From: a virus
Lineage: Duplodnaviria; Caudoviricetes
Virus record (IMG/VR): IMGVR_UViG_3300033066_000895
Coordinates: 5,260 to 69,259 of that record
Reading direction: 5' to 3' (one strand)
DNA length: 64,000 nt
Shown one piece after another: positions 773 to 61,093 of this stretch. The notes beneath the pieces were generated by a model, which was not told the DNA's origin, did no database searches, and saw only the letters and a list, made by a program, of their open reading frames with translations. Positions within the stretch are counted from its first letter, which is position 1, and every line of letters starts with the position of its first letter. Position numbers and translations under genes: made by a program.

Positions 773-1258
773 TTATTCCTTCTTTACAGGGTCTAGGTGT
801 TCGTCATCATCGTCTTCGTCGTCACCGTAGATATCGGGATTCTGGTAGGGAATGTATCTAACGTTACGAGTCATCCCCCTGTTGAGTCGTGCTGACAGAC
901 CATGAGCCTGAAAGGGATCACCTGAGTAATCGAGAACGACGCGGTACTCGTATAGGTTGGGTATGTGTGTCGGATTGAGTGTGATGACTCCGACGACACA
1001 ACAGTGAGAACGGTTATGGAGTTCTGCAATCAACACGTCTGTTGAGCAGGTCTTCAGGTCTGGATTCCCTTTGATGGCGATATACTGGGCTGGATTCTTG
1101 GTCGTGTACTTGTCTGTGTAAGCTACGCTTTTGGAGGGAAATGATGACCGATTCCTTGCCCCGTAAAGTCGGCTTTTAATGTACTTGATGACCGCGATAC
1201 CAGAAAGGACCACAAAGGCGATCAACAGGAATGCTTGAAAGTCCGTCATATGAATCAT
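773..1258 (-). CDS. hypothetical protein with N-terminal TM helix
   Basis: FQAFLLIAFVVLSGIAVI segment; acidic tail; operon packing. Confidence 0.6.
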   Translation of the reverse strand: MIHMTDFQAFLLIAFVVLSGIAVIKYIKSRLYGARNRSSFPSKSVAYTDKYTTKNPAQYIAIKGNPDLKTCSTDVLIAELHNRSHCCVVGVITLNPTHIPNLYEYRVVLDYSGDPFQAHGLSARLNRGMTRNVRYIPYQNPDIYGDDEDDDDEHLDPVKKE

Positions 1259-1260
1259 AC

Positions 1261-1533
1261 CTATGGTACGAGTTTGCTGATTTTTATTAGAAGTTGATGT
1301 ATCTCCGTCAGGAATACATCTGAGGGTTCACCGTGGTGTAATGACTCCATTCGTTCAGCCATCTTACCGGCTTCCGCAAATGCTTCTTCTCGGGCTTTGT
1401 GTTCTGTACTGAGTTGTTGACAGTGCTGTCTGATTATTGCGGGATCAACAGGTAGACATTCATCGAGTGCTTCTTCTAGCTTTTGGTCGAATTGATTTTG
1501 GGCTTTCTTCAGGATGTTTTCTATTTTGGACAT
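1261..1533 (-). CDS. hypothetical coiled-coil protein
   Basis: Start re-assigned to MSKIEN; helical composition. Confidence 0.55.
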   Translation of the reverse strand: MSKIENILKKAQNQFDQKLEEALDECLPVDPAIIRQHCQQLSTEHKAREEAFAEAGKMAERMESLHHGEPSDVFLTEIHQLLIKISKLVP

Positions 1534-2766: not shown

Positions 2767-3151
2767 CTACAGCAAGCACTTTTTCTGCATGATGTTTACA
2801 TTCGGATCGCAGGTCTTTCAGTTCAGCATCCTTCTGATTGATCTTGTCGATGAGGGCTTGATATGCTGCCTCACTCGCAGTCAGCTTGTCCTTGTGGAGA
2901 GTGAGGGAATCCATGAGGTTGGTCATCCCCTTTTCGGCTTCTTCAGCACGGTTGCAGAGTTCGTTATTAAACGATTCTGCATTGATAGCTCGTATAAAAC
3001 AATCGTTCATTTTCTCAGTCAGTTCATCGTTTTCTTTATACATCTTTTTTCTAAATGCCCGATGTTCACGGTACATTGCAATCATTCGTAACAACATGAT
3101 CAGAGTTGTAACGCCGAGAATCCACGTTCCAGTAAACAGAGCATCATACAT
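2744..3151 (-). CDS. TM-anchored coiled-coil protein
   Basis: Start MYDALF with AAGGA RBS; TM helix followed by heptads. Confidence 0.65.
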   Translation of the reverse strand: MYDALFTGTWILGVTTLIMLLRMIAMYREHRAFRKKMYKENDELTEKMNDCFIRAINAESFNNELCNRAEEAEKGMTNLMDSLTLHKDKLTASEAAYQALIDKINQKDAELKDLRSECKHHAEKVLAVDRDQVYR

Positions 3152-3477: not shown

Positions 3478-3743
3478 TCGACTAATCCTAAACAAGAGTC
3501 TTCCCACGGGTCTTCAAAATAAGGCTCAACGGTTTCCTTGACGAGTGTAGCATAAACTTGAGTTGAACTACCCTCAGATATTGATACCAAGCTGCCGACC
3601 TTGAATACGGGTAGACCGGGAGTATCTGGACCGTAGATATGCTCGGTGTTCAGTTCAAGTATCTTATGACCACAGAGCATACAACGTTGGACCACCCGAT
3701 TACCGATCTGGATTGCATGAGCAGCGAGGTGGACAGTTTTCAT
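3474..3743 (-). CDS. hypothetical protein with CxxC motif
   Basis: QRCMLCGH; operon packing. Confidence 0.55.
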   Translation of the reverse strand: MKTVHLAAHAIQIGNRVVQRCMLCGHKILELNTEHIYGPDTPGLPVFKVGSLVSISEGSSTQVYATLVKETVEPYFEDPWEDSCLGLVE

Positions 3744-3823
3744 TTATACCTCAAAATAAATACGGGCGGATTTGTAGATGATCCACATGAGGAGGGAAAC
3801 AGCGGACCAGAGGTGGATAGTTT

Positions 3824-4252
3824 TCATGTTTCGCGTACCCCACAAGGATGCCCGCTAAGAAATGTCCAACTGTTGAGGAGGTCATCTCTCGTAAGGATTC
3901 TAACATCACTACCAGCAGGATGACCGTAGGCTACTACTAACCCATATTTCTGTGAAATCTCTAACTGACTGATCTGGATAGCAACAACAGTACCTGTCAT
4001 TGATGAATGATATTGGTTTTTTCGCTTGATGCACTTCCCCAACAGGTCAAGCATTTCGTTATCATTGAATGGACGGTAGATAGGAGGGGCAGGTGCTTGT
4101 TTAATCCGGTAGTTATCTGGAGAGCACGAGAAGTCAAGATTTTTGCTTACCTGCCAGCTTCTTGTACGATCATCTCGGAGAAGTTCAATATCTTTACCTT
4201 CCGCAAATGCCTGAATAATCGGCAGTAGTTCTTTTGCTCGTTCTGGGGTCAT
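3824..4252 (-). CDS. hypothetical phage protein, YRIK..RPF family, paralogue 1
   Basis: YRIKQAP..YRPFN and WTFLSGHPCGV motifs shared with 4249-4638 and 7060-7524. Confidence 0.7.
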   Translation of the reverse strand: MTPERAKELLPIIQAFAEGKDIELLRDDRTRSWQVSKNLDFSCSPDNYRIKQAPAPPIYRPFNDNEMLDLLGKCIKRKNQYHSSMTGTVVAIQISQLEISQKYGLVVAYGHPAGSDVRILTRDDLLNSWTFLSGHPCGVRET

Positions 4253-4638
4253 TGTTCAAGTACTCCACAAGGTGAACCATCAAGAAATAACCACTCGTCT
4301 AGTAAAGACTGATTACTGATATAAGATGCGTAACGAAATACCCTTACTCCCCCCAAACGATCACTAATGTCAATGATCGTAGTTGCATCACGGTTACTCC
4401 ATTCTTTATGCCTGATCTGTTTACCGAGTAGTCCCACCAATTCTTCAGGAGTGAACGGACGATATACCGGGTTGGGTTTGATGCGGAAGTGATCGAGGTT
4501 TCCAAGCGTCATACATCTCATCGTTACGCAATCATTCCATATACGATCCCCTTCATAATATTGAAGTGGTGTTCCGTCTCTAAATGCAGTAGCCAGTTCA
4601 ATGAATTTATCAACGTTATCTCGGGTTAATGTAATCAT
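4249..4638 (-). CDS. hypothetical phage protein, YRIK..RPF family, paralogue 2
   Basis: FRIKPNPVYRPFT, WLFLDGSPCGV. Confidence 0.7.
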   Translation of the reverse strand: MITLTRDNVDKFIELATAFRDGTPLQYYEGDRIWNDCVTMRCMTLGNLDHFRIKPNPVYRPFTPEELVGLLGKQIRHKEWSNRDATTIIDISDRLGGVRVFRYASYISNQSLLDEWLFLDGSPCGVLEQ

Positions 4639-5624
4639 TCTTCCTCCACTTCTTCTATTAGGATATCAAGTACTTCGGTCTGTTGTTCAATGACGGGTAG
4701 CAGTTCCTTCACTTCTGCCTCAATCACCCGTCTATCTTCTGGTTTGAGCATCTTGAGTAAATCTTTAATCATGTCGAATGCTTCAACACGGGCATCTCCG
4801 TTTGTCATCGATTCTACTGGTTGAACGTCTTCACCCTTACTATTCACAAGAGCGATCCGTTCAGGAGCATTGTTTCCTACCAGTAAATCAATACGGGTCT
4901 GTATCTGTCTAGCTACGCTTTCTGAGGAGGAAATAGCATCTTGTGCGAGGGTCTTCATCCGATAGGCTTTTTTCAGGATGTTGTCATACTGTTGTAGAGC
5001 ATGAACATCACCCCTTGAAGCCTTCATGTTATCCTTCACTTGTTTAACGAATTCATTCGCTTCCGCTAAATCCTTCTTAGCCCTATTTGCATCGGCTACA
5101 GCACTTCGAAGCTTCGTTGACCAGAACGAAAGTGAATCAGATTTCAACTCAAGGGGTTGTCGATCTAATATTGCGTTCTGACGCTTTCTTGCGATTACAA
5201 TATATTTATAAACAGATTTACGTGAAATGCTCCAAGCCATTGCACACGAACGGGCTATGTCCTCCTGACACATTGATAAACTCATCAATCCACGTATCTC
5301 TTCGATGCGATGATTGATCAATCGTGATTGTTCTTTTGTCCGTTTCCTCATCTTTCTTTTTGTACCAACAGGGTACAGCATCTCGACACCATATTCATCA
5401 ACAGCTAATCCCGTTTCTGGATCAATTGATTCAACACCGGGAGTTGGCGTGATCACTGGTGATTCGGGAAATGAATGAGGGCTGACTTCTGGGTTGAATG
5501 CTTCAGTTGCATCTTTAAATTCTGTCATTCGAGGAGCAGTTCGCCGTTTAACAGGATTACGAGGTATTCGGCCTGTATCTCTAACGACAGCTACCTTCTT
5601 CTTGACTGCTGCCTTCTTCGGCAT
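4635..5624 (-). CDS. HTH-containing protein, possibly the terminase small subunit
   Basis: QEDIARSC..WSISRKSVYKYI HTH-like segment followed by long helices; basic N-terminus. Confidence 0.45.
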   Translation of the reverse strand: MPKKAAVKKKVAVVRDTGRIPRNPVKRRTAPRMTEFKDATEAFNPEVSPHSFPESPVITPTPGVESIDPETGLAVDEYGVEMLYPVGTKRKMRKRTKEQSRLINHRIEEIRGLMSLSMCQEDIARSCAMAWSISRKSVYKYIVIARKRQNAILDRQPLELKSDSLSFWSTKLRSAVADANRAKKDLAEANEFVKQVKDNMKASRGDVHALQQYDNILKKAYRMKTLAQDAISSSESVARQIQTRIDLLVGNNAPERIALVNSKGEDVQPVESMTNGDARVEAFDMIKDLLKMLKPEDRRVIEAEVKELLPVIEQQTEVLDILIEEVEEE

Positions 5625-8758: not shown

Positions 8759-9053
8759 CTTCGGTTTTTGGGGGAGAAGTATATATAATTCCGCATTCGA
8801 TTATTATAGATTGCTTTAACCATTCTGTGTAATCAGAAAACCATTGTTCGGATGCTTTTAAGCTGTTTGCATCATCTGCTGATCCTAGTAATTCGTCAGC
8901 ATCCCTAACTAGCTTTTTCAGCCTTTCAATCTTCTGAGTTGCGTTAAGGTCCATCCCATCGTTGGCGAGCAACTGTCGAACTCGTGTCCTCCCCTCAGTT
9001 GAACGGAGAATCTTGAGCATTTCGGCTTGAGTGATCATTTTCATATGAATCAT
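8733..9053 (-). CDS. hypothetical protein
   Basis: Helical ORF; operon packing. Confidence 0.55.
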   Translation of the reverse strand: MIHMKMITQAEMLKILRSTEGRTRVRQLLANDGMDLNATQKIERLKKLVRDADELLGSADDANSLKASEQWFSDYTEWLKQSIIIECGIIYTSPPKTEGDSDELPS

Positions 9054-9093
9054 ATACCGTTCTGTGATTTTCGGAATTTTATTGAAAGTGAAA

Positions 9094-11832: not shown

Positions 11833-11929
11833 ATTTCCTCCAAAGGCGAAGCTGCTACGTGAAATAACCTCTTGGGGTATTTAATCCCAAGAGGTTACAG
11901 AGCATCTGGAAAGAGCTAGTAAACAGATG

Positions 11930-15815: not shown

Positions 15816-15850
15816 GAAAAAGCCTCTAGCGAGTGACTAGAGGCTTTTTC
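15816..15850. terminator. bidirectional intrinsic terminator
   Basis: GAAAAAGCCTCTAG-CGAGTGA-CTAGAGGCTTTTTC between convergent operons. Confidence 0.85.
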
Positions 15851-38566: not shown

Positions 38567-38610
38567 AAACCGGATATGATTTATATGTCATATCCGGTTT
38601 TTTCGTTTTT
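38567..38610 (+). terminator. intrinsic terminator
   Basis: AAACCGGATATGA-8-TCATATCCGGTTT followed by T-rich run. Confidence 0.8.
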
Positions 38611-38891: not shown

Positions 38892-39380
38892 TTAACCAAA
38901 TAGGAGTATCATTGACATGATCTGAACCAGTGTCCCAGACATGTCGAGTGTTTTGTGAGAACTATCTACGGCAATCGATCCATAACGGACAATCATTGAT
39001 CGATCTTTAGCGGTTGGCAAAATGATCGTTCCGAGCGTATATCCGTTCGATGCTCCAGTAGCGATCTGGATCGAATTCGCGTTTGCAGAGTCGGAGACGA
39101 ATAATGCTGCTCTCAAATGCAATCCAGTCATATCGAGCGTAGGCTGATTCGTTGCAGTCAATGCCGTCAGGTCCAGTGTTTTGGCACCAGCAATAAGAGC
39201 AATATCCCCTCCCCAAATTTGAGTAACAGCGGGAGTTGACGTTGCGTTTAGTGTGAGCTTTGGTGCGATCGACTTGAGGTCATAGACAAACTGTGGATCA
39301 GCTAATCCGTTTGTGCTTAACCCACGTGTACAAGTAGCGTGAAGCAATGTATTGAAGTCAGCATTGACGGTCGTTGTCAT
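38892..39380 (-). CDS. putative virion protein
   Basis: Beta-rich, T/A/G-rich; structural operon context. Confidence 0.6.
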   Translation of the reverse strand: MTTTVNADFNTLLHATCTRGLSTNGLADPQFVYDLKSIAPKLTLNATSTPAVTQIWGGDIALIAGAKTLDLTALTATNQPTLDMTGLHLRAALFVSDSANANSIQIATGASNGYTLGTIILPTAKDRSMIVRYGSIAVDSSHKTLDMSGTLVQIMSMILLFG

Positions 39381-40894
39381 TATTCGGCCTTATTCCAACG
39401 TGGAGGGTTATCAGGACAGCGGGAGGATATATTTGCCAGTTTGTTTAATAGGTTTTGTTTTCGAGTTACATTGCATCCGCACAAATCACATCCACCGTCA
39501 ATTAAGTGAGAACATTGTTCGCAGATTTTAAACCTCTCGTCAATGACAGATTGAGGAGCGAGTTTACCCTGAACAGCAGTATTGACCATTGTTGAAGCAA
39601 ATGATTTAGCACGTTCTATCATTGATAGAGGCTTCGCCTTTTGGGGGAGAATGGTAGGAGGATTCAATTCAAGCAGATCACACGAGCCGCAAGATTGGAC
39701 AAATCTATTGCCGAGATTGTTTTTCTCTTCATCAGTTTGGACACAGAGTCTTTTATGTGGACATCGGTAAATCTGAATACCGGATTTCTTATCGGTTGAC
39801 GCAACCCCTCTACGGTGTTTGCATGCTTTCTCATCCAAGAGCGTAGCAGAATTAGTTTCCTTAACAGCTTGAACAGTGACTTTTATTTTTGATTGCGTTT
39901 CTTTATTGATGAAACGTCTGACGGTATCTTTTCCTCGCATTGAATGGACGATAGCAGGATTGATCATCGACTGTTCAGCGGTCATCCAATCTTCGTATTT
40001 CCACGGTTTACCATCCGGTAGTTTATCCTTGAAATTTCCTACCCAGTCACATGCCCATACATCACTGAGGTTTTGTACTGTATTCAATTCGTAGTTTGGT
40101 ACAAGAGTCTGGCCGACAACAGCTAATGGAGGTTCGTCAGAAACCATAGGGTGTGTAGCTTTCATCTTGTTCGCAATGCCTTCAACAAGATCGGCAATCA
40201 GTTTGATGTCTGTCCGTCTGACGATCCACATCCCCCCATTTGTTGACCAGATTTTTTTTCCAGAGCATCCGAGGGATTTCATGATGTCAAGTACTTGAGG
40301 AAATTTCATTGTCCACCAGTCTGGCCATCTGACTTTAGGCGATGTCAATTCTCCTTCCATTGAAATCCAGCACGGGTTATCTCGGATTAAGTTTTTGAGA
40401 TTACCGGGATGACGAACAAAATAGTTATCGGCATCTAGCCAAACGCAATAGTCATATGTTGTATTTTCTAGTTTCCTGAGGAAGTCGAGTTTTGCGAGAT
40501 GATTTCTCCAAGGAGTATTTTTTGGAATCTCATGAAATTCAAATCCTTTTACTTTCCAAGGAGAAAAAAGGTGAAAGTCTTCCGATACCCCTGAATCTCT
40601 AGCAGATTTTAACAGCATATGGATTAGGGGAATATCTGCCGCTCGGTTGGTTCCCGTGAAATAGCAGAAGTTTGACTTGTCTTGCATTTCAATAACACTA
40701 TGTTCTTTTCGTAGTGGGCACCCCTCACAGACATTGTAACTGCTGCCAATAGCTATATTTTTCTCGGCTTGTGTTTCTACACAGTAAGGAACACTGATTT
40801 CAGGATGTTCGCACTTTAGAACTGTAATATGAGGATCAGTACCTGCCCCCATATCACGGATAAATTCAATTTTTCCTAGATGAATACAGACCAC
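39380..40894 (-). CDS. glycosyltransferase (DxD) flanked by Cys-rich modules
   Basis: YDYCVWLDADNYF, NGGMWI, SDEP; Cys-rich N- and C-terminal modules. Confidence 0.65.
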   Translation of the reverse strand: MVCIHLGKIEFIRDMGAGTDPHITVLKCEHPEISVPYCVETQAEKNIAIGSSYNVCEGCPLRKEHSVIEMQDKSNFCYFTGTNRAADIPLIHMLLKSARDSGVSEDFHLFSPWKVKGFEFHEIPKNTPWRNHLAKLDFLRKLENTTYDYCVWLDADNYFVRHPGNLKNLIRDNPCWISMEGELTSPKVRWPDWWTMKFPQVLDIMKSLGCSGKKIWSTNGGMWIVRRTDIKLIADLVEGIANKMKATHPMVSDEPPLAVVGQTLVPNYELNTVQNLSDVWACDWVGNFKDKLPDGKPWKYEDWMTAEQSMINPAIVHSMRGKDTVRRFINKETQSKIKVTVQAVKETNSATLLDEKACKHRRGVASTDKKSGIQIYRCPHKRLCVQTDEEKNNLGNRFVQSCGSCDLLELNPPTILPQKAKPLSMIERAKSFASTMVNTAVQGKLAPQSVIDERFKICEQCSHLIDGGCDLCGCNVTRKQNLLNKLANISSRCPDNPPRWNKAE

Positions 40895-58450: not shown

Positions 58451-59869
58451 TTACTTTCCAGTAACGGGGTTTACCTTTGAGCAGTACTCATCGACGATTG
58501 CATTGACGCGGGCATCGTCGACTTCCGCATTATGGAAGAACTGAGAAGTACCAGAGATAGGAATTTCCTTTTCACTGAATTGCTTCGCTCGTTCATCTGG
58601 GGTGAACATTGCCCCTTCAGGATACTCTTCGATCAGACCGAGGATCGTATCCAGTTCCGACTTGTCGTCTCCGGTACCTGAGAACTGGTAGGTACTGGCG
58701 GTATTCTTGAGTGCTTCACCCTTAGCCGATGAGCATCGACCAGAGCGGACGCAAGCATCAATCCGATCGTTGTATGACTTTCGTCGGTTGTTCGAAATCT
58801 CAGCCATCAACGAATCAATGCGAGACTGTTGAGCAACAACTGTCGTTTTCAGTTGTGACATCTGAACAACATTGATGTCATCAACAGGAGTTTTGACTTC
58901 GGGGGTTTCAGGTGTTTCTTTTGACATGGCGATTACTGTTGCCTGTTCTGTTGGAGGTTGATTTGGGTTTCCGCCCATTTGGTTAGCTTGCATTCCGACA
59001 TTTCGGCTTGCCTGAGCGGTCATGTCAACAATCATCGAAAGTACACGACCCATTGATTCAGGGTCTTTCAAAATCGGACTGTCGGCAGCAAGTTGAATTC
59101 CCATTGCCTGAAGTGCTTCGGTTAACTTTGCCAACAAATTACCCGTTCCCTGATCGGTTGTTCCGTTCGAGTTCGGAGTTTGTTGATTTGGCACCGCAGC
59201 ATCCCCAAGACTAAATCGCAGAATTTCATCGTCGTCTAAGGCTTCAGAAATTTTGCTCATTTGCAATGGTGAAGAGTTTTGCTCGGAATCAGACCTATGG
59301 TCAACCCCTGATTCCGATTTTTTTGGAATAAAATCTGAGGACTGTTTTGGATTAACAGGATTCCGTGTGAGAGCGATGTGATGTAATGCGTTTTCCAGAA
59401 TCGTTCCATCCGGCAGTTTGAACCTACCAAACTGGGGGGAAACGTATGTTCCTGTTTTTTCCAGACGCTTGCCAATCGATTCTTCAGGATCGATATCAAC
59501 ATGGAACATACTGGTTTGATCGAGAGTACCTGACTCCACCCATCCTGAAAAATAAGGATCGCTTTCTGCTTGCTGGATCGCTTCGGCATCATCGGCTTTG
59601 ATCGGATAAGCAAGCGGTTCCTTTCTACCGGGATGTTCCATCCATGCAGGAATTCGATATCCAGCTTGTTTGATCTTTTCGATACTGGATTGCATCTGGG
59701 TCAAGTCTGCCTTTTCGACAACGATTGCCTGATTTCCTTTTCGGTAAATACCGGGACGCATAACATCTTTTTGCAGAGTGGTAATGATTGCACCTGTTTT
59801 TCTAATTGTCTTCAAAAGCTGACACTTTGGAGAACGCCTAACGAAACGTTCACTCCCTAGAATTGCCAA
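58451..59869 (-). CDS. Mu gpI-like prohead protease / scaffold
   Basis: PGIY, EHP, YVSPQF, IALTRNP; helical scaffold-like C-terminal half; start uncertain (TTG). Confidence 0.8.
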   Translation of the reverse strand: MAILGSERFVRRSPKCQLLKTIRKTGAIITTLQKDVMRPGIYRKGNQAIVVEKADLTQMQSSIEKIKQAGYRIPAWMEHPGRKEPLAYPIKADDAEAIQQAESDPYFSGWVESGTLDQTSMFHVDIDPEESIGKRLEKTGTYVSPQFGRFKLPDGTILENALHHIALTRNPVNPKQSSDFIPKKSESGVDHRSDSEQNSSPLQMSKISEALDDDEILRFSLGDAAVPNQQTPNSNGTTDQGTGNLLAKLTEALQAMGIQLAADSPILKDPESMGRVLSMIVDMTAQASRNVGMQANQMGGNPNQPPTEQATVIAMSKETPETPEVKTPVDDINVVQMSQLKTTVVAQQSRIDSLMAEISNNRRKSYNDRIDACVRSGRCSSAKGEALKNTASTYQFSGTGDDKSELDTILGLIEEYPEGAMFTPDERAKQFSEKEIPISGTSQFFHNAEVDDARVNAIVDEYCSKVNPVTGK

Positions 59870-59936
59870 AGTGTCAGCAGATGAGGATTCTGTTCGGAAC
59901 GGGGTCTGTGGTCAACAGGGATAAAACGATGGTCTG

Positions 59937-60336
59937 AATAAAATTCTGAAAACGGAGGTGTGGTATATAAATCATCAACTCCAAAAAAAGTCGGATTTCC
60001 AACTAGGTATGTCGATCCTCTCATCTCCCTTCCCCCGCTAGTAGATAGAGTACTCACTTCGTTCGTACTCTATCTACACCCCTATCCCTCTTACTCTCCT
60101 TTACTACGTTTCTGGAGGAGAATAACAGTACTCTTGACAGGTACTCTTCTCTTCTGTATCTATAATAGAGAGGAATACGAACGAAGTGAGTATTCCTCTC
60201 TCTTCTAGTATTTATATGATTTATATACATATACCCCATTTTCAGAATTTTATTAAAAATGCAAAATCAGAGTACCTCAGTACAGGAAACACTTTTTAAT
60301 AAAATTCTGGTTTCAGACAATGGTGATATGAATCAT
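59937..60336. other. symmetric cis-acting locus (candidate origin/pac or divergent promoter pair)
   Basis: Inverted 39-bp elements enclosing two opposite-strand hairpins; see findings. Confidence 0.5.
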
Positions 60337-60669
60337 ACCCAGAAAGGGATTCCAGACCTGAATCAGATCAACAATAAAGATGATCGGAGAGAAATCTGGA
60401 TTCTCCTAGATAAACTGACCCCGAAAGAGCGATGCCAGTTTTTAGAGTTCGTCGTCAATCAAGTGAATCAAGGCATCAAGCTCAAGCACAATCCGCCTTG
60501 GGTTCTGGTTGAAGTGACCAACAACTCGGGAGAGACGAATGAAGTCTATATCGATCTTGCTCACATTGTGTCTCAGTACCGGATTGGATGGAATCCAGTT
60601 CTGGCAACCCTCGAACGATTTGTTGCTCATCAGTCATGTGACAGTCTTTCTTCCCAGAAGCGAAGCTAG
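60259..60669 (+). CDS. hypothetical protein
   Basis: First ORF right of the symmetric locus. Confidence 0.5.
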   Translation: MQNQSTSVQETLFNKILVSDNGDMNHTQKGIPDLNQINNKDDRREIWILLDKLTPKERCQFLEFVVNQVNQGIKLKHNPPWVLVEVTNNSGETNEVYIDLAHIVSQYRIGWNPVLATLERFVAHQSCDSLSSQKRS

Positions 60670-60676
60670 TGTAGAA

Positions 60677-61093
60677 ATGACTACGAAGAAAAATATTGAT
60701 CGAGTCGGATACTTGGTCATCCTTGTCTGGGTTCTGTATTGCGTTTTCGGTTCAAGTGATCAACCACAAAAATCAACTGTAGGTGTTGGGCCGCGGTCCC
60801 CAAAATGGACCGAAGTCAGAAATCGGTTTGCTGCTGCTCATCCCGTTTGTGAAGTCTGTGGTCGTAAGACGGAAACGGTTCATCACCGAAAACCGTTTCA
60901 TCTCTACCCGGAATTAGAACTCGATGAGTCTAACTTGATTTCGTTTTGTGACCGATGCCATCTGGTGTTCGGTCATCTGTTCAATTTCCAAAATGAAAAC
61001 CCTGATGTTGATCAGCACATAAAAATGTTTCGGGATGCTAAACTCAAAGCTGATGAAAAACGGAAATCAGCGAAAACTACCTTAGCATTTTAA
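60677..61093 (+). CDS. HNH endonuclease with N-terminal TM/signal segment
   Basis: CEVCG..TVHH..P....LISFCDRCH..FGH; VGYLVILVWVLYCVFG. Confidence 0.75.
   Translation: MTTKKNIDRVGYLVILVWVLYCVFGSSDQPQKSTVGVGPRSPKWTEVRNRFAAAHPVCEVCGRKTETVHHRKPFHLYPELELDESNLISFCDRCHLVFGHLFNFQNENPDVDQHIKMFRDAKLKADEKRKSAKTTLAF

What the first reader, a model, noticed from the sequence alone, without database searches (positions are those of the whole stretch)
59937..60336. Mirror-symmetric locus with twin opposite-strand GA-mismatch/GAA-loop hairpins: candidate origin or packaging site
Seen: hairpin 1 is GTAGATAGAGTAC-TCACTTCGTTC-GTACTCTATCTAC (60041-60077, 13-bp stem). Hairpin 2 is AGAGAGGAATAC-GAACGAAGTGA-GTATTCCTCTCT (60167-60201, 12-bp stem). 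The stems differ, but the 11-nt loops are exact reverse complements, so each strand displays GA-AC-GAA-GT-GA (tandem G.A pairs capped by a C(GAA)G triloop). One dispersed motif (60103) lies between them. The pair is enclosed by inverted 39-bp elements (59937-59975 and 60216-60254, with 16-bp and 13-bp perfect arms 10 nt apart) and a third copy at 60298-60336. The locus sits at a transcriptional divergence point beside the capsid operon and an HNH gene. Inference: bidirectional origin with paired priming hairpins, a pac/cos region, or twin divergent late promoters.
Basis: partly seen in the sequence, partly recalled or inferred. Interest (0 to 1): 0.75.

Follow-up and report, generated by a model that had tools for sequence, protein, structure and literature searches.

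The report
Twin capped DNA hairpins, candidate origin
Two hairpins on opposite strands, sitting where this uncultured phage's genes diverge, are copies of a widespread hairpin whose stem varies but whose 11-base tip is conserved; the same hairpin occurs in many phages, bacteria and archaea, is in no catalogue I searched, and most likely marks where DNA copying (or else transcription) begins.

Summary
Hairpin 1 (60041-60077, 13-bp stem) and hairpin 2 (60167-60201, 12-bp stem) are perfect. Their 11-nt loops are exact reverse complements, and this 11-mer occurs nowhere else in the 69-kb contig.

The main new result is that the loop is not private to this phage. GA-N-CGAAG-N'-GA caps stems of unrelated sequence in many IMG/VR contigs, in cultured phages (E. 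coli RB16/RB43/Lw1, Enterococcus, Aeromonas, Vibrio) and in bacterial and archaeal contigs. It is almost always intergenic, and both the stems and the inner N:N' pair covary.

Opposite-strand pairs recur:
- in two further IMG/VR phage lineages;
- at three symmetric loci conserved across 63 RB43-like phages, one directly upstream of uvsY, where T4 has oriF.

The cap follows the published rules for very stable DNA mini-hairpins, whose RNA form is weak. Known uses are G4 oric, phage N4 hairpin promoters, and the paired ssiA/ssiB priming signals of plasmid RSF1010.

Best reading (about 0.35): strand-specific DNA hairpins at a divergence point, acting as paired initiation signals for a bidirectional origin. 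Rivals are RNA leader hairpins, regulatory DNA hairpins, and PeSL-like promoter/stem-loop cassettes. A pac/cos site is unlikely. Earlier notes from this scan describe related GNA mini-hairpin modules on other DNA. No function was tested.

The parts
58451..59761 (-). First gene of the leftward head operon. The protein database calls it as 436 aa; my longest ORF reading was 472 aa, to 59869. Its function was not identified here.
   Evidence: ORF list. Protein P0001, 436 aa, is 100% identical, and homologs P0002-P0007 exist. No Pfam or PHROG hit. The downstream genes are a decoration-like protein and the major capsid protein.
59887..59915 (-). Sigma-70-like promoter match, TTGACC-17-CAGAAT, pointing left toward the head operon.
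   Evidence: Consensus scan, 9 of 12 positions. The number of such matches in the region equals the chance expectation, so this is weak evidence.
59937..59975 (+). 39-bp AT-rich bipartite element ('motif A'), copy 1: AATAAAATTCTGAAAA, then 10 nt, then GTATATAAATCAT.
   Evidence: The 12-mer AATAAAATTCTG occurs three times in the contig, all within this locus.
60041..60077 (-). Hairpin 1: 13-bp perfect stem. The G-rich cap GAACGAAGTGA lies on the minus strand.
60103..60127 (+). Degenerate copy of the genome-wide 'motif B': a C(GNA)G mini-hairpin followed by TTTCTGGAG-RAGAA. Here the GNA form lies on the minus strand.
60134..60166 (+). TTGACA ... TATAAT pointing right. TATAAT directly abuts the 5' arm of hairpin 2. 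The spacer is 21 nt, which is not canonical.
   Evidence: Read from the sequence. The 16-18 nt spacer scan did not report it.
60065..60147 (+). Three direct copies of GTACTCT, at 60065, 60128 and 60141. These are the only plus-strand copies in the whole 64-kb window.
60167..60201 (+). Hairpin 2: 12-bp perfect stem, extendable to 19 bp with two mismatches. The G-rich cap GAACGAAGTGA lies on the plus strand.
60200..60260 (.). The most AT-rich stretch of the locus (about 80% A+T), directly 3' of hairpin 2 on the plus strand. It is a candidate unwinding element.
   Evidence: AT profile
60216..60254 (-). Motif A copy 2, inverted relative to copy 1.
60298..60336 (+). Motif A copy 3 (weaker). It overlaps an in-frame ATG at 60328, the likely true start of the first rightward gene (60328-60669).
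60692..61093 (+). HNH endonuclease gene. The likely start is the ATG at 60692, just after a sense-oriented motif B copy; the longest ORF runs from 60539.
   Evidence: Pfam HNH hit and PHROG HNH hits. Motif B lies at 60660-60666.

Best explanation
The locus is the phage's main point of transcriptional divergence. Its two palindromes are oppositely oriented copies of a widespread, strand-specific DNA hairpin module.

The module:
- Each stem is capped by GA-AC-GAA-GT-GA, which reads as two sheared G.A pairs, a 2-bp helix and a C(GAA)G triloop.
- This follows the published rules for very stable DNA mini-hairpins.

Proposed mechanism (inferred, not shown):
1. Negative supercoiling behind the two diverging transcription units, helped by the AT-rich 39-bp elements and the 80% A+T stretch next to hairpin 2, opens the duplex.
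2. The G-rich arm of each palindrome then folds into a stable hairpin, one on each strand. By analogy with the N4 and G4 mini-hairpins, these may resist binding by single-strand DNA binding protein.
3. The two hairpins serve as single-strand initiation signals for leading-strand synthesis in opposite directions. This would make the locus a bidirectional replication origin of the same logic as ssiA/ssiB in IncQ plasmid oriV.

What is shown: the anatomy, the conservation and covariation of the module across many genomes, and its recurrent pairing on opposite strands.

What is inferred: folding at the DNA level rather than the RNA level, hairpin extrusion, and priming.
For: 1. The structures are real and stand out in this genome.

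2. The hairpin is a conserved module.
- Among 95 distinct IMG/VR hits to the bare 15-mer, 37 have stems of 5 bp or more, against 1.5 expected. There are 21 different stem sequences.
- An unbiased pair count on 91 sequences gives 64% paired against 51% in shuffles (0 of 500 shuffles reach it), and 32-44% in slid controls.
- Loop positions 3 and 9 covary.

3. Copy number is low and pairs on opposite strands recur.
- 2 copies here, and 1-3 properly capped copies in each of three IMG/VR genome records searched whole, two of them rated 100% complete.
- Opposite-strand pairs occur in contigs L035/L086 and L050/L073.
- RB16 has three mirror-symmetric loci. Each has two caps on the top strand, a conserved AT-rich core of roughly 70-110 bp, and two caps on the bottom strand (in two of the three loci one bottom-strand cap is degenerate). 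Two of the three show outward sigma-70-like promoter matches on both flanks.
- The one RB16 locus used as a query (rnh/55) is at least about 80% identical (90% or more in the 40 listed rows) over 80% or more of its length in 63 RB43-like phage records, with three matching places in every listed record.
- One RB16 locus lies directly upstream of uvsY, where T4 has oriF.

4. Chemistry and precedent.
- d(GCGAAGC) melts at 76.5 C. The review gives about 39 C for an RNA mini-hairpin counterpart.
- Mini-hairpins occur at G4 oric, in RSF1010 ssiA (CCGAAGG) and in N4 promoters (PMC13037366).
- N4 c(GNA)g hairpins extrude at a superhelical density of -0.035, and SSB does not perturb the template-strand hairpin (PMC4496689).
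- ssiA and ssiB are two inverted 40-nt hairpin signals, present once each on complementary strands, with priming starting 3' of the hairpin (PMC8567376).

5. The model fits both geometries. With priming 3' of a cap, the 'divergent' arrangement (this window, L050) and the 'convergent' arrangement (RB16, L035) both give bidirectional synthesis. The RNA-leader model fits only the first.

6. Cap orientation does not follow gene orientation in annotated phages. RB16 is symmetric, Enterococcus EF1 is antisense, and Aeromonas ZPAH1 has 3 copies sense and 2 antisense to the flanking genes (a sixth site is an adjacent opposite-strand pair).

7. In T4, several origins lie at points of transcriptional divergence, and the two characterised minimal origins (oriF, oriG) consist of a promoter plus an AT-rich unwinding element (PMC3016281).
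Against: - No replication data exist for this phage.
- GC skew shows no turning point at the locus.
- No primase was detected: Pfam scans of ten ORFs in the replication region found none, and whole-contig searches for Prim-Pol and Toprim_2 found nothing. The RepB' search was uninformative because its control also failed. The contig is rated only 68% complete, so absence is weak evidence.
- No relatives of this phage could be fetched, so conservation of the locus within its own lineage is untested.
- The same cap occurs in settings that are not obviously origins: directly after tRNA genes, in arrays upstream of four-helix-bundle genes, and as a multi-copy element in some Clostridia genomes. The cap may therefore be a general structural device rather than an origin signal.
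- A test for G.T against A.C mismatches in stems found no strand bias (9 against 4, and these are not independent events).
- T4 itself lacks the motif, and only one of RB16's three loci coincides closely with a T4 origin.
Confidence: 0.35

Rival explanations
1. RNA-level leader hairpins. Two back-to-back promoters sit in the 89-bp core: TTGACA/TATAAT firing right, and the motif B copy or another signal firing left. Each outgoing transcript would then begin with the same GAACGAAGUGA-capped stem-loop. That stem-loop could act as a 5' stabiliser or as the binding site of one regulator on both arms, as boxB does in lambda nutL/nutR.
For: - In this window the G-rich cap is on the sense strand of both diverging arms.
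- TATAAT abuts hairpin 2, so a start about 7 nt downstream would give a 5'-terminal hairpin with a 7-bp stem.
- L050 has TTGACT-17-TATAAT between its two hairpins, and each hairpin is followed, in the outward direction, by about 40 nt of homologous sequence.
- In Aeromonas ZPAH1 and in L084, L047 and L016, a -10 box or TATAAATA lies 2-6 nt upstream of the cap.
- In one T4-like family the hairpin lies in a roughly 450-nt conserved non-coding region that folds better on the G strand: -71 against -52 kcal/mol.
Against: - The TTGACA-TATAAT spacer is 21 nt, and no sigma-70-like promoter precedes hairpin 1.
- In RB16 (three loci), Enterococcus EF1 and two ZPAH1 copies, the transcripts of the flanking genes would carry the complementary, pyrimidine-rich loop or would not include the element at all.
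- GAA triloops are poor RNA caps and excellent DNA caps (PMC13037366).
- No Rfam family matches.
Confidence: 0.2
2. Regulatory DNA hairpins with no role in replication. The hairpins are extruded by supercoiling and either tune or insulate the two divergent promoters by absorbing negative supercoils, or they act as N4-style hairpin promoters or docking sites for a polymerase or an architectural protein.
For: - The DNA-level arguments are the same as for the best explanation.
- The module is often found next to sigma-70-like or T4-late-like promoters.
- When the N4 P1 hairpin was placed between the -35 and -10 of the rrnB promoter, it silenced that promoter in a gyrase-dependent way (PMC4496689).
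- The locus sits where negative supercoiling from divergent transcription is greatest. This last point follows from the twin-domain model and is my own knowledge, not a tool result.
Against: - There is no N4-like giant virion RNA polymerase gene.
- The position of the caps relative to promoters varies widely: upstream, overlapping or downstream.
- Nothing tested here separates this reading from the origin model.
Confidence: 0.2
3. A PeSL-like mobile cassette combining a promoter and a stem-loop. The hairpins are terminator or attenuator stem-loops that travel together with promoters and serve mainly as recombination and shuffling modules. On this view, the conserved cap reflects common descent or horizontal spread rather than a dedicated function.
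For: - PeSLs of T4-type phages combine sigma-70-like promoters with stem-loops that often overlap the -10 box (PMC2839356 and PMC4122927).
- The same layout is seen in L084 and L047, and in ZPAH1 cassettes repeated at 6 sites (7 caps).
- The cap is spread across unrelated phages and cellular genomes, and is multi-copy in some.
Against: - This phage has only two copies, both at one locus.
- Neither hairpin is followed by a T-run, unlike this genome's real terminators.
- The rnh/55 locus of RB16 is positionally fixed in 63 phage records, with three matching places in each listed record. That argues for a stable function rather than shuffling.
- Published PeSL stem-loops have other consensus forms (poly-G/poly-C, A3-4G3...), and no conserved loop is reported for them.
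Confidence: 0.12
4. A packaging site (pac or cos), with the neighbouring HNH nuclease assisting the terminase.
For: An HNH gene lies about 500 bp to the right. HNH-assisted cos packaging is a known arrangement; this is my own knowledge, not a tool result.
Against: - The large terminase gene is at contig position 3578-5137. That is 60 kb away on the linear contig, or about 7.3 kb if the contig is circular.
- No small terminase gene was recognised nearby.
- The cap is shared by unrelated phages with different packaging strategies and by cellular genomes.
- The contig does not end at the locus.
Confidence: 0.03
5. An invertible promoter switch. The 23-nt inverted repeat (60048-60070 / 60173-60195) would flank a 102-bp segment that carries the TTGACA/TATAAT promoter.
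For: The inverted repeat is 91% complementary and encloses a promoter-like sequence.
Against: - Across genomes the asymmetric centre of each palindrome is conserved while the arms vary. This is the opposite of a recombinase site, where the protein-binding arms are conserved.
- No recombinase was seen among the ORFs I scanned, although I did not search for one specifically.
- Other phages have the pair in both relative orientations, which inversion cannot interconvert.
Confidence: 0.02

Closest known systems
ssiA/ssiB single-strand initiation signals in oriV of IncQ plasmids (RSF1010/R1162), recognised by RepB' primase
   Same: - Two hairpin signals form an inverted repeat and are present once each on complementary strands of one replicon.
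- ssiA is capped by a C(GAA)G mini-hairpin (CCGAAGG).
- They lie near AT-rich DNA and repeated elements.
- They give bidirectional leading-strand initiation (PMC8567376, PMC13037366).
   Different: - No RepB'-like or other primase was found here.
- The stems here are longer (12-13 bp), and the cap has an extra tandem G.A step.
- The sequence is not similar.
- ssiA/ssiB are described as unique to IncQ plasmids, whereas this cap is found across phages, bacteria and archaea.
- Function here is untested.
Phage N4 virion-RNA-polymerase early promoters (supercoil-extruded DNA hairpins)
   Same: - A c(GNA)g-capped DNA hairpin in a tailed phage.
- The stem varies as long as it pairs, while the loop and closing pair are conserved.
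- The hairpin is strand-specific and SSB does not melt it.
- Extrusion occurs at physiological supercoiling (PMC4496689).
   Different: - N4 stems are 5-7 bp with a bare 3-nt loop, and they sit at a fixed distance (-11) from the transcription start.
- They need the 3,500-aa virion polymerase, which is absent from this contig.
- N4 has three same-sense promoters at one genome end, not an opposite-strand pair.
DNA mini-hairpins d(GCGAAGC)/d(GCGNAGC) and the primase-dependent origin of phage G4
   Same: The core CGAAG, with its sheared G.A pair and C-G closing pair, is the same. The cap variant GAGCGAAGCGA contains GCGAAGC exactly. Mini-hairpins are linked to sites where DNA synthesis is primed (PMC13037366).
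   Different: - The 11-nt form with flanking tandem G.A pairs, sitting on long variable stems, is not in that review.
- G4 is a single-stranded DNA phage, whereas this one has double-stranded DNA.
PeSL promoter/stem-loop cassettes of T4-type phages
   Same: Both are intergenic composites of a sigma-70-like promoter and a stem-loop that overlaps or abuts the -10 box. T4-like phages carrying this cap (ZPAH1, RB16) show such composites (PMC2839356, PMC4122927).
   Different: - PeSLs occur in tens of copies, in hyperplastic regions.
- Their stems have other consensus forms, and no conserved loop is reported.
- They act as terminators.
- This locus has two copies, no T-runs, and is not in a T4-like phage.
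T4 oriF/oriG (promoter plus AT-rich unwinding element, primed by an R-loop)
   Same: Both lie at or near points of transcriptional divergence and combine a promoter with an AT-rich element. One RB16 twin-cap locus sits directly upstream of uvsY, where T4 has oriF (PMC3016281).
   Different: T4 origins share no sequence motif, and T4 lacks the cap. In RB16 the flanking promoters point away from the AT-rich core rather than into it.

Membership tests
IncQ-type oriV with ssiA/ssiB | Two hairpin signals, present once each, on complementary strands of the replicon | tested here: met
   The 11-mer cap occurs exactly twice in the contig, once on each strand, 125 bp apart.
IncQ-type oriV with ssiA/ssiB | Hairpin capped by a C(GAA)G mini-hairpin | tested here: met
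   The loop contains C-GAA-G closed by an A:T pair and flanked by G.A/A.G. Positions 3 and 9 covary in other genomes.
IncQ-type oriV with ssiA/ssiB | Adjacent iterons and an AT-rich unwinding region | tested here: inconclusive
   There are three 39-bp elements, three GTACTCT repeats and an 80% A+T stretch. No initiator protein is known, and the 39-bp element also occurs at gene starts elsewhere in the genome.
IncQ-type oriV with ssiA/ssiB | A cognate primase (RepB'-like) encoded by the replicon | tested here: inconclusive
   Whole-contig searches for Prim-Pol and Toprim_2 found nothing, Pfam scans of ten replication-region ORFs found no primase, and the RepB_primase search failed its own controls. 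The contig is rated 68% complete.
IncQ-type oriV with ssiA/ssiB | DNA synthesis starts 3' of each hairpin | not testable with these tools
   This needs nascent-strand mapping.
N4 vRNAP hairpin promoters | A 5-7-bp stem with a 3-nt GNA loop closed by C-G, on the template strand at -11 | tested here: inconclusive
The transcription starts are unknown (PMC4496689).
N4 vRNAP hairpin promoters | A giant virion RNA polymerase encoded by the phage | tested here: not met
   The largest ORF is 1,213 aa and has no polymerase hit. The contig may be incomplete.
PeSL cassettes | A sigma-70-like promoter with a stem-loop overlapping or abutting it | tested here: inconclusive
   TTGACA-21 nt-TATAAT abuts hairpin 2. 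The spacing is not canonical, and hairpin 1 has no such promoter.
PeSL cassettes | Many dispersed copies flanking variable genes | tested here: not met
   There are only two copies, both in one locus.
Intrinsic (Rho-independent) terminators | A GC-rich stem followed by a T-run | tested here: not met
   Neither hairpin has a T-run on either strand. The genome's other long hairpins do.
cos/pac packaging site | Lies next to the terminase genes, with genome termini at the site | tested here: not met
   The large terminase gene is 60 kb away on the contig, or 7.3 kb if circular. Termini cannot be tested without reads.
Any Rfam RNA family | A covariance-model match | tested here: not met
   No match reaches the gathering score in the window or in seven related loci. 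At E up to 10 only chance-level hairpin matches appear.

The most novel reading that the evidence does not exclude
The GA-N-CGAAG-N'-GA cap is an undescribed signal, used across phages, bacteria and archaea, that works on single-stranded DNA: an ultra-stable hairpin tip, possibly resistant to binding by single-strand DNA binding protein. It would mark where DNA or primer synthesis starts on an exposed strand. An opposite-strand pair of such hairpins beside AT-rich DNA would be a minimal bidirectional origin, used by unrelated tailed phages. That would include the three conserved loci of RB43-like coliphages, whose origins have never been defined.
Probability: 0.22. Interest if true: 0.85.

Novelty: new variant of a known kind. 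Interest (0 to 1): 0.66.

Why it matters
Replication origins of most tailed phages are unknown, and the T4 literature states that T4's origins share no sequence motif.

This work finds a short structural signal that can be searched for, that recurs in opposite-strand pairs at points of transcriptional divergence in unrelated phages, and that follows the chemistry of the DNA hairpins used at the few priming and promoter sites already understood (G4 oric, RSF1010 ssiA/ssiB, N4 promoters). That makes the question directly testable.

The test does not need this uncultured phage. The same module sits at three fixed loci in RB16, RB43 and Lw1, which grow on laboratory E. coli.

Even if the origin reading is wrong, the result stands that an 11-nt hairpin cap is conserved from phages to archaea without appearing in Rfam or in the papers I could search. 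This adds to a recurring theme in this scan of GNA mini-hairpin modules that are in no catalogue.

Tried and rejected
- **Relatives of this phage.** The search for related loci was run with the neighbouring protein, with an alignment of its homologs, and with P0003 and P0006, against viral, metagenome and genome contigs. Conservation of the locus within the phage's own lineage is therefore untested.
- **Similarity to cultured phages.** BLAST of the locus and of the major capsid protein against cultured phages gave nothing. The DNA polymerase is only about 23% identical to its best hits.
- **Rfam.** No family matches.
- **Literature.** Searching for the 11-mer as DNA returned only unrelated primer sequences. 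Searching for it as RNA returned nothing. Papers on the RB43 group do not mention the loci.
- **Strand test.** Counting G.T against A.C mismatches in stems gave 9 against 4, and these events are not independent, so the result is inconclusive.
- **GC skew.** There is no turning point at the locus.
- **Primase search.** Nothing was found.
- **T4 origin near gene 55.** None is annotated there. oriG and oriE lie 2-3 kb from the T4 genes that correspond to the neighbours of the other two RB16 loci, so only the oriF coincidence is close.
- **Readings considered and rejected.**
  - Recombinase (lox-like) site: the centre of each palindrome is conserved and the arms vary, the reverse of what such a site shows.
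  - Intrinsic terminator: there is no T-run.
  - K-turn, sarcin-ricin loop, boxB or hammerhead core: by eye, the sequence does not fit any of these.
  - Small ORFs 59960-60208(+) and 60054-60239(-): they lie across the hairpins and were treated as spurious.
- **Contig circularity.** I first assumed the contig was circular because an ORF spans its two ends. IMG/VR classes it as linear, and CheckV rates it 68% complete.
Full report
**What is in the window**

The window is 64 kb of a single 69,259-bp viral contig with 45% GC. IMG/VR classes the contig as linear, and CheckV rates it 68% complete. It is a tailed phage that is very distant from cultured phages. The locus and the capsid protein give no BLAST hit, and the DNA polymerase I is only about 23% identical to its best hits.

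- To the left of the locus runs a long minus-strand block. It begins with a 436-aa protein, a lambda-D-like decoration protein and an E-type major capsid protein.
- To the right, small plus-strand genes begin, including an HNH nuclease.
- The finding therefore occupies the roughly 500-bp non-coding region between 59762 and 60327, where transcription diverges.

**Check of the observation**

- Hairpin 1 (60041-60077) has a 13-bp perfect stem.
- Hairpin 2 (60167-60201) has a 12-bp perfect stem.
- The stems are unrelated apart from the six base pairs next to the loop.
- The 11-nt loops are exact reverse complements, so GAACGAAGTGA is displayed on the minus strand at the left and on the plus strand at the right.
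- The 11-mer occurs nowhere else in the contig.
- Each strand of each hairpin folds far better than shuffled sequence: z = -4.6 to -5.2, with 0 of 200 shuffles folding as well.
- The contig has only five perfect hairpins with stems of 11 bp or more. The other three are terminator-type hairpins flanked by A and T runs.

The enclosing 39-bp elements are real.

- Copy 1 (59937-59975) and copy 2 (60216-60254) share perfect 16-bp and 13-bp blocks separated by 10 nt.
- Copy 3 (60298-60336) is weaker.
- They belong to a dispersed family that elsewhere overlaps gene starts.
- Their leading 12-mer occurs only in this locus.

Between the hairpins lie:

- a degenerate copy of the genome-wide mini-hairpin motif (60103-60127);
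- a TTGACA ... TATAAT pair with a 21-nt spacer, whose TATAAT abuts hairpin 2;
- three copies of GTACTCT, the only plus-strand copies in the 64-kb window.

Directly 3' of hairpin 2 is the most AT-rich stretch of the locus, about 80% A+T over 60200-60260.

**The key result: the hairpin is a widespread module**

Among 95 distinct hits, 37 have perfect stems of 5-12 bp, where 1.5 are expected by chance. There are 21 different stem sequences of 6 bp or more.

I ran a pair count on all 91 distinct sequences without selecting for pairing. It gives 64% of cells paired against 51% in shuffles, with 0 of 500 shuffles reaching the observed value. Controls with the partner slid by 1-3 columns give 32-44%.

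Inside the loop, positions 3 and 9 covary: AC..GT, GC..GC and CC..GG all occur.

Almost all hairpin-bearing copies are intergenic. Copy number is low. Three IMG/VR genome records searched whole (two rated 100% complete) have 1-3 properly capped copies each, and Aeromonas phage ZPAH1 has seven.

BLAST of hairpin 2 against cultured phages found the exact 17-mer in several groups:

- E. coli T4-like phages RB16 and Lw1;
- Enterococcus phages with genomes of about 140 kb.

It also gave near-exact matches (91-95% over 21-23 nt) in Aeromonas phages ZPAH1 and Aswh_1 and in Vibrio phage VP4B.

Among 93 distinct hits, 23 have stems of 6 bp or more, where 1.5 are expected. These include 17-bp covarying stems in a multi-copy element of Oscillospiraceae genomes.

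No Rfam family matches. The papers I could search do not contain the motif.

**Opposite-strand pairs recur**

Besides this window, pairs occur in several other places.

- **A marine T4-like contig (L035/L086).** The pair is 108 nt apart and lies upstream of the late sigma factor gene.
- **A 156-kb phage (L050/L073).** The pair is 272 nt apart, with TTGACT-17-TATAAT between the hairpins. Each hairpin is followed, in the outward direction, by about 40 nt of homologous sequence.
- **RB16.** This is the most striking case. Three mirror-symmetric loci each carry two caps on the top strand, a conserved AT-rich core of roughly 70-110 bp, and two caps on the bottom strand (in two loci one bottom-strand cap is degenerate). 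Outward-pointing promoter matches flank them; two of the three loci show sigma-70-like matches on both sides.

The three RB16 loci lie in these positions:

- between rnh and gene 55, which diverge;
- between gene 3 and an ORF, which also diverge;
- between the end of gene 24 and the start of uvsY.

In T4, the 5' end of uvsY is the annotated origin oriF. The rnh/55 locus, the only one used as a query, matches at about 80% identity or more (90% or more in the 40 listed rows) over at least 80% of its length in 63 RB43-like phages of Enterobacter, Cronobacter, Citrobacter, Klebsiella and E. coli, with three matching places in every listed record. T4 itself has no copy. T4's oriG and oriE lie 2-3 kb from the genes that correspond to the neighbours of the other two RB16 loci. 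No origin is annotated near T4 gene 55. Only the oriF coincidence is therefore close.

**DNA or RNA**

Several lines point to single-stranded DNA.

1. The cap follows the published rules for very stable DNA mini-hairpins: a C-G closing pair and a sheared G.A pair in a GNA triloop. d(GCGAAGC) melts at 76.5 C, whereas the review gives about 39 C for an RNA mini-hairpin counterpart. One cap variant contains GCGAAGC exactly (PMC13037366).
2. Cap orientation does not follow gene orientation in annotated phages. RB16 is symmetric whatever the flanking genes. In Enterococcus EF1 the G-rich strand is antisense to both neighbours. In ZPAH1, three copies are sense and two antisense to the flanking genes (a sixth site is an adjacent opposite-strand pair), yet five of the seven caps lie on the same DNA strand across 160 kb.
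3. Both relative orientations of the pair exist: 'divergent' here and in L050, 'convergent' in RB16 and L035. A leader-RNA function would not tolerate that.

Evidence against this, or neutral:

- A test for G.T against A.C mismatches in stems shows no clear strand bias.
- In this window, in L050 and in several other loci a -10 box lies just upstream of the G-rich cap, so an RNA 5' hairpin is possible there.
- In one T4-like family the hairpin lies in a roughly 450-nt conserved non-coding region that folds better on the G strand.

**Mechanism proposed**

Known uses of such DNA hairpins are:

- primase-dependent priming at G4 oric;
- phage N4 early promoters. Here a c(GNA)g hairpin extrudes at a superhelical density of -0.035, SSB does not perturb the template-strand hairpin, and the stem sequence is free as long as it pairs (PMC4496689);
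- the IncQ plasmid origin. RepB' primase starts leading-strand synthesis at ssiA and ssiB, two 40-nt inverted hairpin signals present once each on complementary strands, with the primer starting 3' of the hairpin (PMC8567376). ssiA carries a CCGAAGG cap.

The window locus matches the IncQ arrangement point for point at the level of anatomy. It has one capped hairpin per strand, present once per replicon. It has neighbouring repeated elements and an AT-rich stretch. It also lies where negative supercoiling from two diverging operons is highest.

If priming starts 3' of a cap, hairpin 2 (plus-strand template) would start leftward synthesis from within the AT-rich stretch, and hairpin 1 would start rightward synthesis. 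In the RB16 geometry the 3' flank of every cap faces the central AT-rich core, so synthesis would run outward. Both geometries therefore give bidirectional replication.

The T4 review notes that several T4 origins lie at points of transcriptional divergence, and that the two characterised minimal origins (oriF, oriG) are a promoter plus an AT-rich unwinding element (PMC3016281).

I therefore rank 'paired single-strand initiation hairpins of a bidirectional origin' first, at about 0.35. Shown: the anatomy, the conservation, the pairing and the chemistry by analogy. Inferred: extrusion, strand specificity and priming.

**A weak extra hint**

The genome-wide mini-hairpin motif (about 22 copies; first-reader note e1-5798055, partly re-derived) has its GNA form on the minus strand at almost all sites from 1.1 to 60.1 kb. 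This holds even at two sites next to plus-strand genes (14981 and 36079). The next two copies to the right of the locus (60666 and 61951) have it on the plus strand. That would fit a polarity switch at the locus. However, gene orientation predicts the pattern almost as well (20 of 23 sites against 17 of 22), and GC skew shows no turning point there.

**Rivals**

- **RNA leader hairpins on two back-to-back transcripts (0.2).** This fits the window and L050 but not RB16, EF1 or two ZPAH1 copies. GAA triloops are also poor RNA caps.
- **Regulatory DNA hairpins without a replication role (0.2).** This shares all the DNA-level evidence and cannot be separated from the origin model here. An N4-type polymerase is absent.
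- **A PeSL-like promoter/stem-loop cassette (0.12).** This is the closest described class for the promoter-plus-hairpin composites in T4-like phages. But this phage has only two copies, they lack T-runs, and the RB16 rnh/55 locus is positionally fixed across 63 phage records.
- **pac/cos (0.03).** This is disfavoured by the distant terminase gene and by the motif's distribution across unrelated phages and cellular genomes.
- **An invertible switch (0.02).** This is disfavoured because the centre of each palindrome, not its arms, is what is conserved.

**Limits**

- No primase was found, but the contig is probably incomplete.
- The cap also occurs in cellular settings that are not obviously origins: directly after tRNA genes, and in arrays upstream of four-helix-bundle genes. 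It may therefore be a general structural device used for several purposes.
- Earlier notes of this scan report related GNA mini-hairpin modules in filamentous phages, microviruses and Bacteroidales repeats, and suggest similar functions at the single-stranded DNA level. Those are unchecked AI notes, and I treat them as leads only.

**Verdict**

The origin reading is viable and now has a named precedent. The pac/cos reading is unlikely. The promoter reading is partly compatible.
- The locus is a new variant of a known kind, the GNA-capped DNA hairpin signal. The 11-nt cap and the twin-hairpin architecture are found across many genomes and appear to be undescribed.
- The question can be tested in RB16/RB43 on laboratory E. 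coli.

Noticed in passing
L125:1447-1717, L151:1086-1407, L152:1158-1428 (E. coli phage RB16, NC_014467, about 137.8, 31.1 and 100.8 kb): RB16 has three mirror-symmetric intergenic loci. Each has two GA-N-CGAAG-N'-GA caps per strand (one bottom-strand cap is degenerate in two loci) around a conserved AT-rich core of roughly 70-110 bp, which contains a CTACAT..ATGTAG inverted repeat, and promoter matches pointing outward on the flanks. The rnh/55 locus, used as the query, is conserved in 63 RB43-like phage records with three matching places in each listed record. I found no description of these loci in the RB43/RB16 papers I read.
   Followed up: partly
L013:7834-8561 and about 22 related IMG/VR loci (for example L027:3650-4300): A non-coding region of about 700 nt lies between a T4 gp51-like baseplate gene and a PDDEXK nuclease gene in large T4-like contigs. 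It has blocks of very high sequence conservation, and the capped hairpin, followed by a second C(GAA)G hairpin, lies near one end. It folds better on the G strand (-71 against -52 kcal/mol). It has no Rfam match and no tRNA. It is a candidate large non-coding RNA or origin region.
   Followed up: partly
L160:560-700, L200:600-760, L235, L254 (Clostridia genome bins): Arrays in which a lineage-specific 9-mer direct repeat (for example AACTTCACT or ACATATCGA) alternates with GNA- or GNRA-capped mini-hairpins, including the 11-nt cap. In four independent loci the array lies directly upstream of a gene for a PF05635 four-helix-bundle protein (the 23S rRNA intervening-sequence / Avd-like family).
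   Followed up: partly
L159, L164, L189, L194, L210, L213, L225, L227, L269, L271 (Oscillospiraceae genome bins): A multi-copy element of about 130 nt with conserved flanks and a 17-bp stem that covaries between copies, capped by GAACGAAGTGA. It often lies at contig ends, as expected for a dispersed repeat that breaks assemblies.
   Followed up: no
L208:5850-5960 and L256 (Bacteroidota chromosome and another genome): The capped hairpin starts immediately after the 3' end of a tRNA gene, on the same strand. In L208 an ordinary terminator follows it.
   Followed up: no
L131, L135, L137, L139, L141, L127 (Aeromonas phage ZPAH1, MW272540): A composite cassette is repeated at 6 sites (7 caps). It has a roughly 65-bp element carrying a sigma-70-like promoter in one direction and TATAAATA (the T4 late-promoter consensus) in the other. 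Next to it, in varying relative orientation, is a conserved 39-nt unit that starts with the 11-nt cap. Five of the seven caps are on the same DNA strand whatever the gene orientation.
   Followed up: partly
window 4911, 14981, 17191, 25072, 30639, 36079, 39631, 45241, 52896, 54984, 60103 (+); 11852, 60666, 61951 (-): The genome-wide 'motif B', a C(GNA)G mini-hairpin followed by a TTTCT-N4-AGAAA hairpin, sits 5-12 nt upstream of start codons in both orientations. In one orientation its GGAG loop serves as the Shine-Dalgarno sequence. In the commoner orientation, no Shine-Dalgarno sequence is visible between the motif and the start codon.
   Followed up: partly
window 39380-40894 (-): The 504-aa ORF is probably two genes read as one. 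A motif B copy followed by an ATG lies at about 39606-39637, and the last 75 aa match a stand-alone 69-aa PHROG family (phrog_13558).
   Followed up: no
window 1240-1295, 9035-9090 (-) and 60291-60346 (+): Copies of the 39-bp 'motif A' overlap start codons, so that the genes begin ATG-ATT-CAT-ATG (M-I-H-M) or ATG-AAT-CAT. The element reads like an A-rich upstream block, then TTCNGA, then 16 nt, then TATRAW. It could be a promoter that produces mRNAs with little or no leader.
   Followed up: partly
window 15816-15850, 38567-38600, 11865-11897; contig 3030-3058: These four long perfect hairpins are flanked by A and T runs. They look like bidirectional intrinsic terminators at operon ends or convergence points. 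The loop of the first (CGAGTGA) partly resembles the 3' half of the cap.
   Followed up: no
contig ends (genome 69182 -> 213): A 96-aa ORF is continuous across the joined contig ends, which suggests circular permutation. However, IMG/VR classes the record as linear and CheckV rates it 68% complete. The large terminase gene (contig 3578-5137, minus strand) lies far from the head genes.
   Followed up: partly
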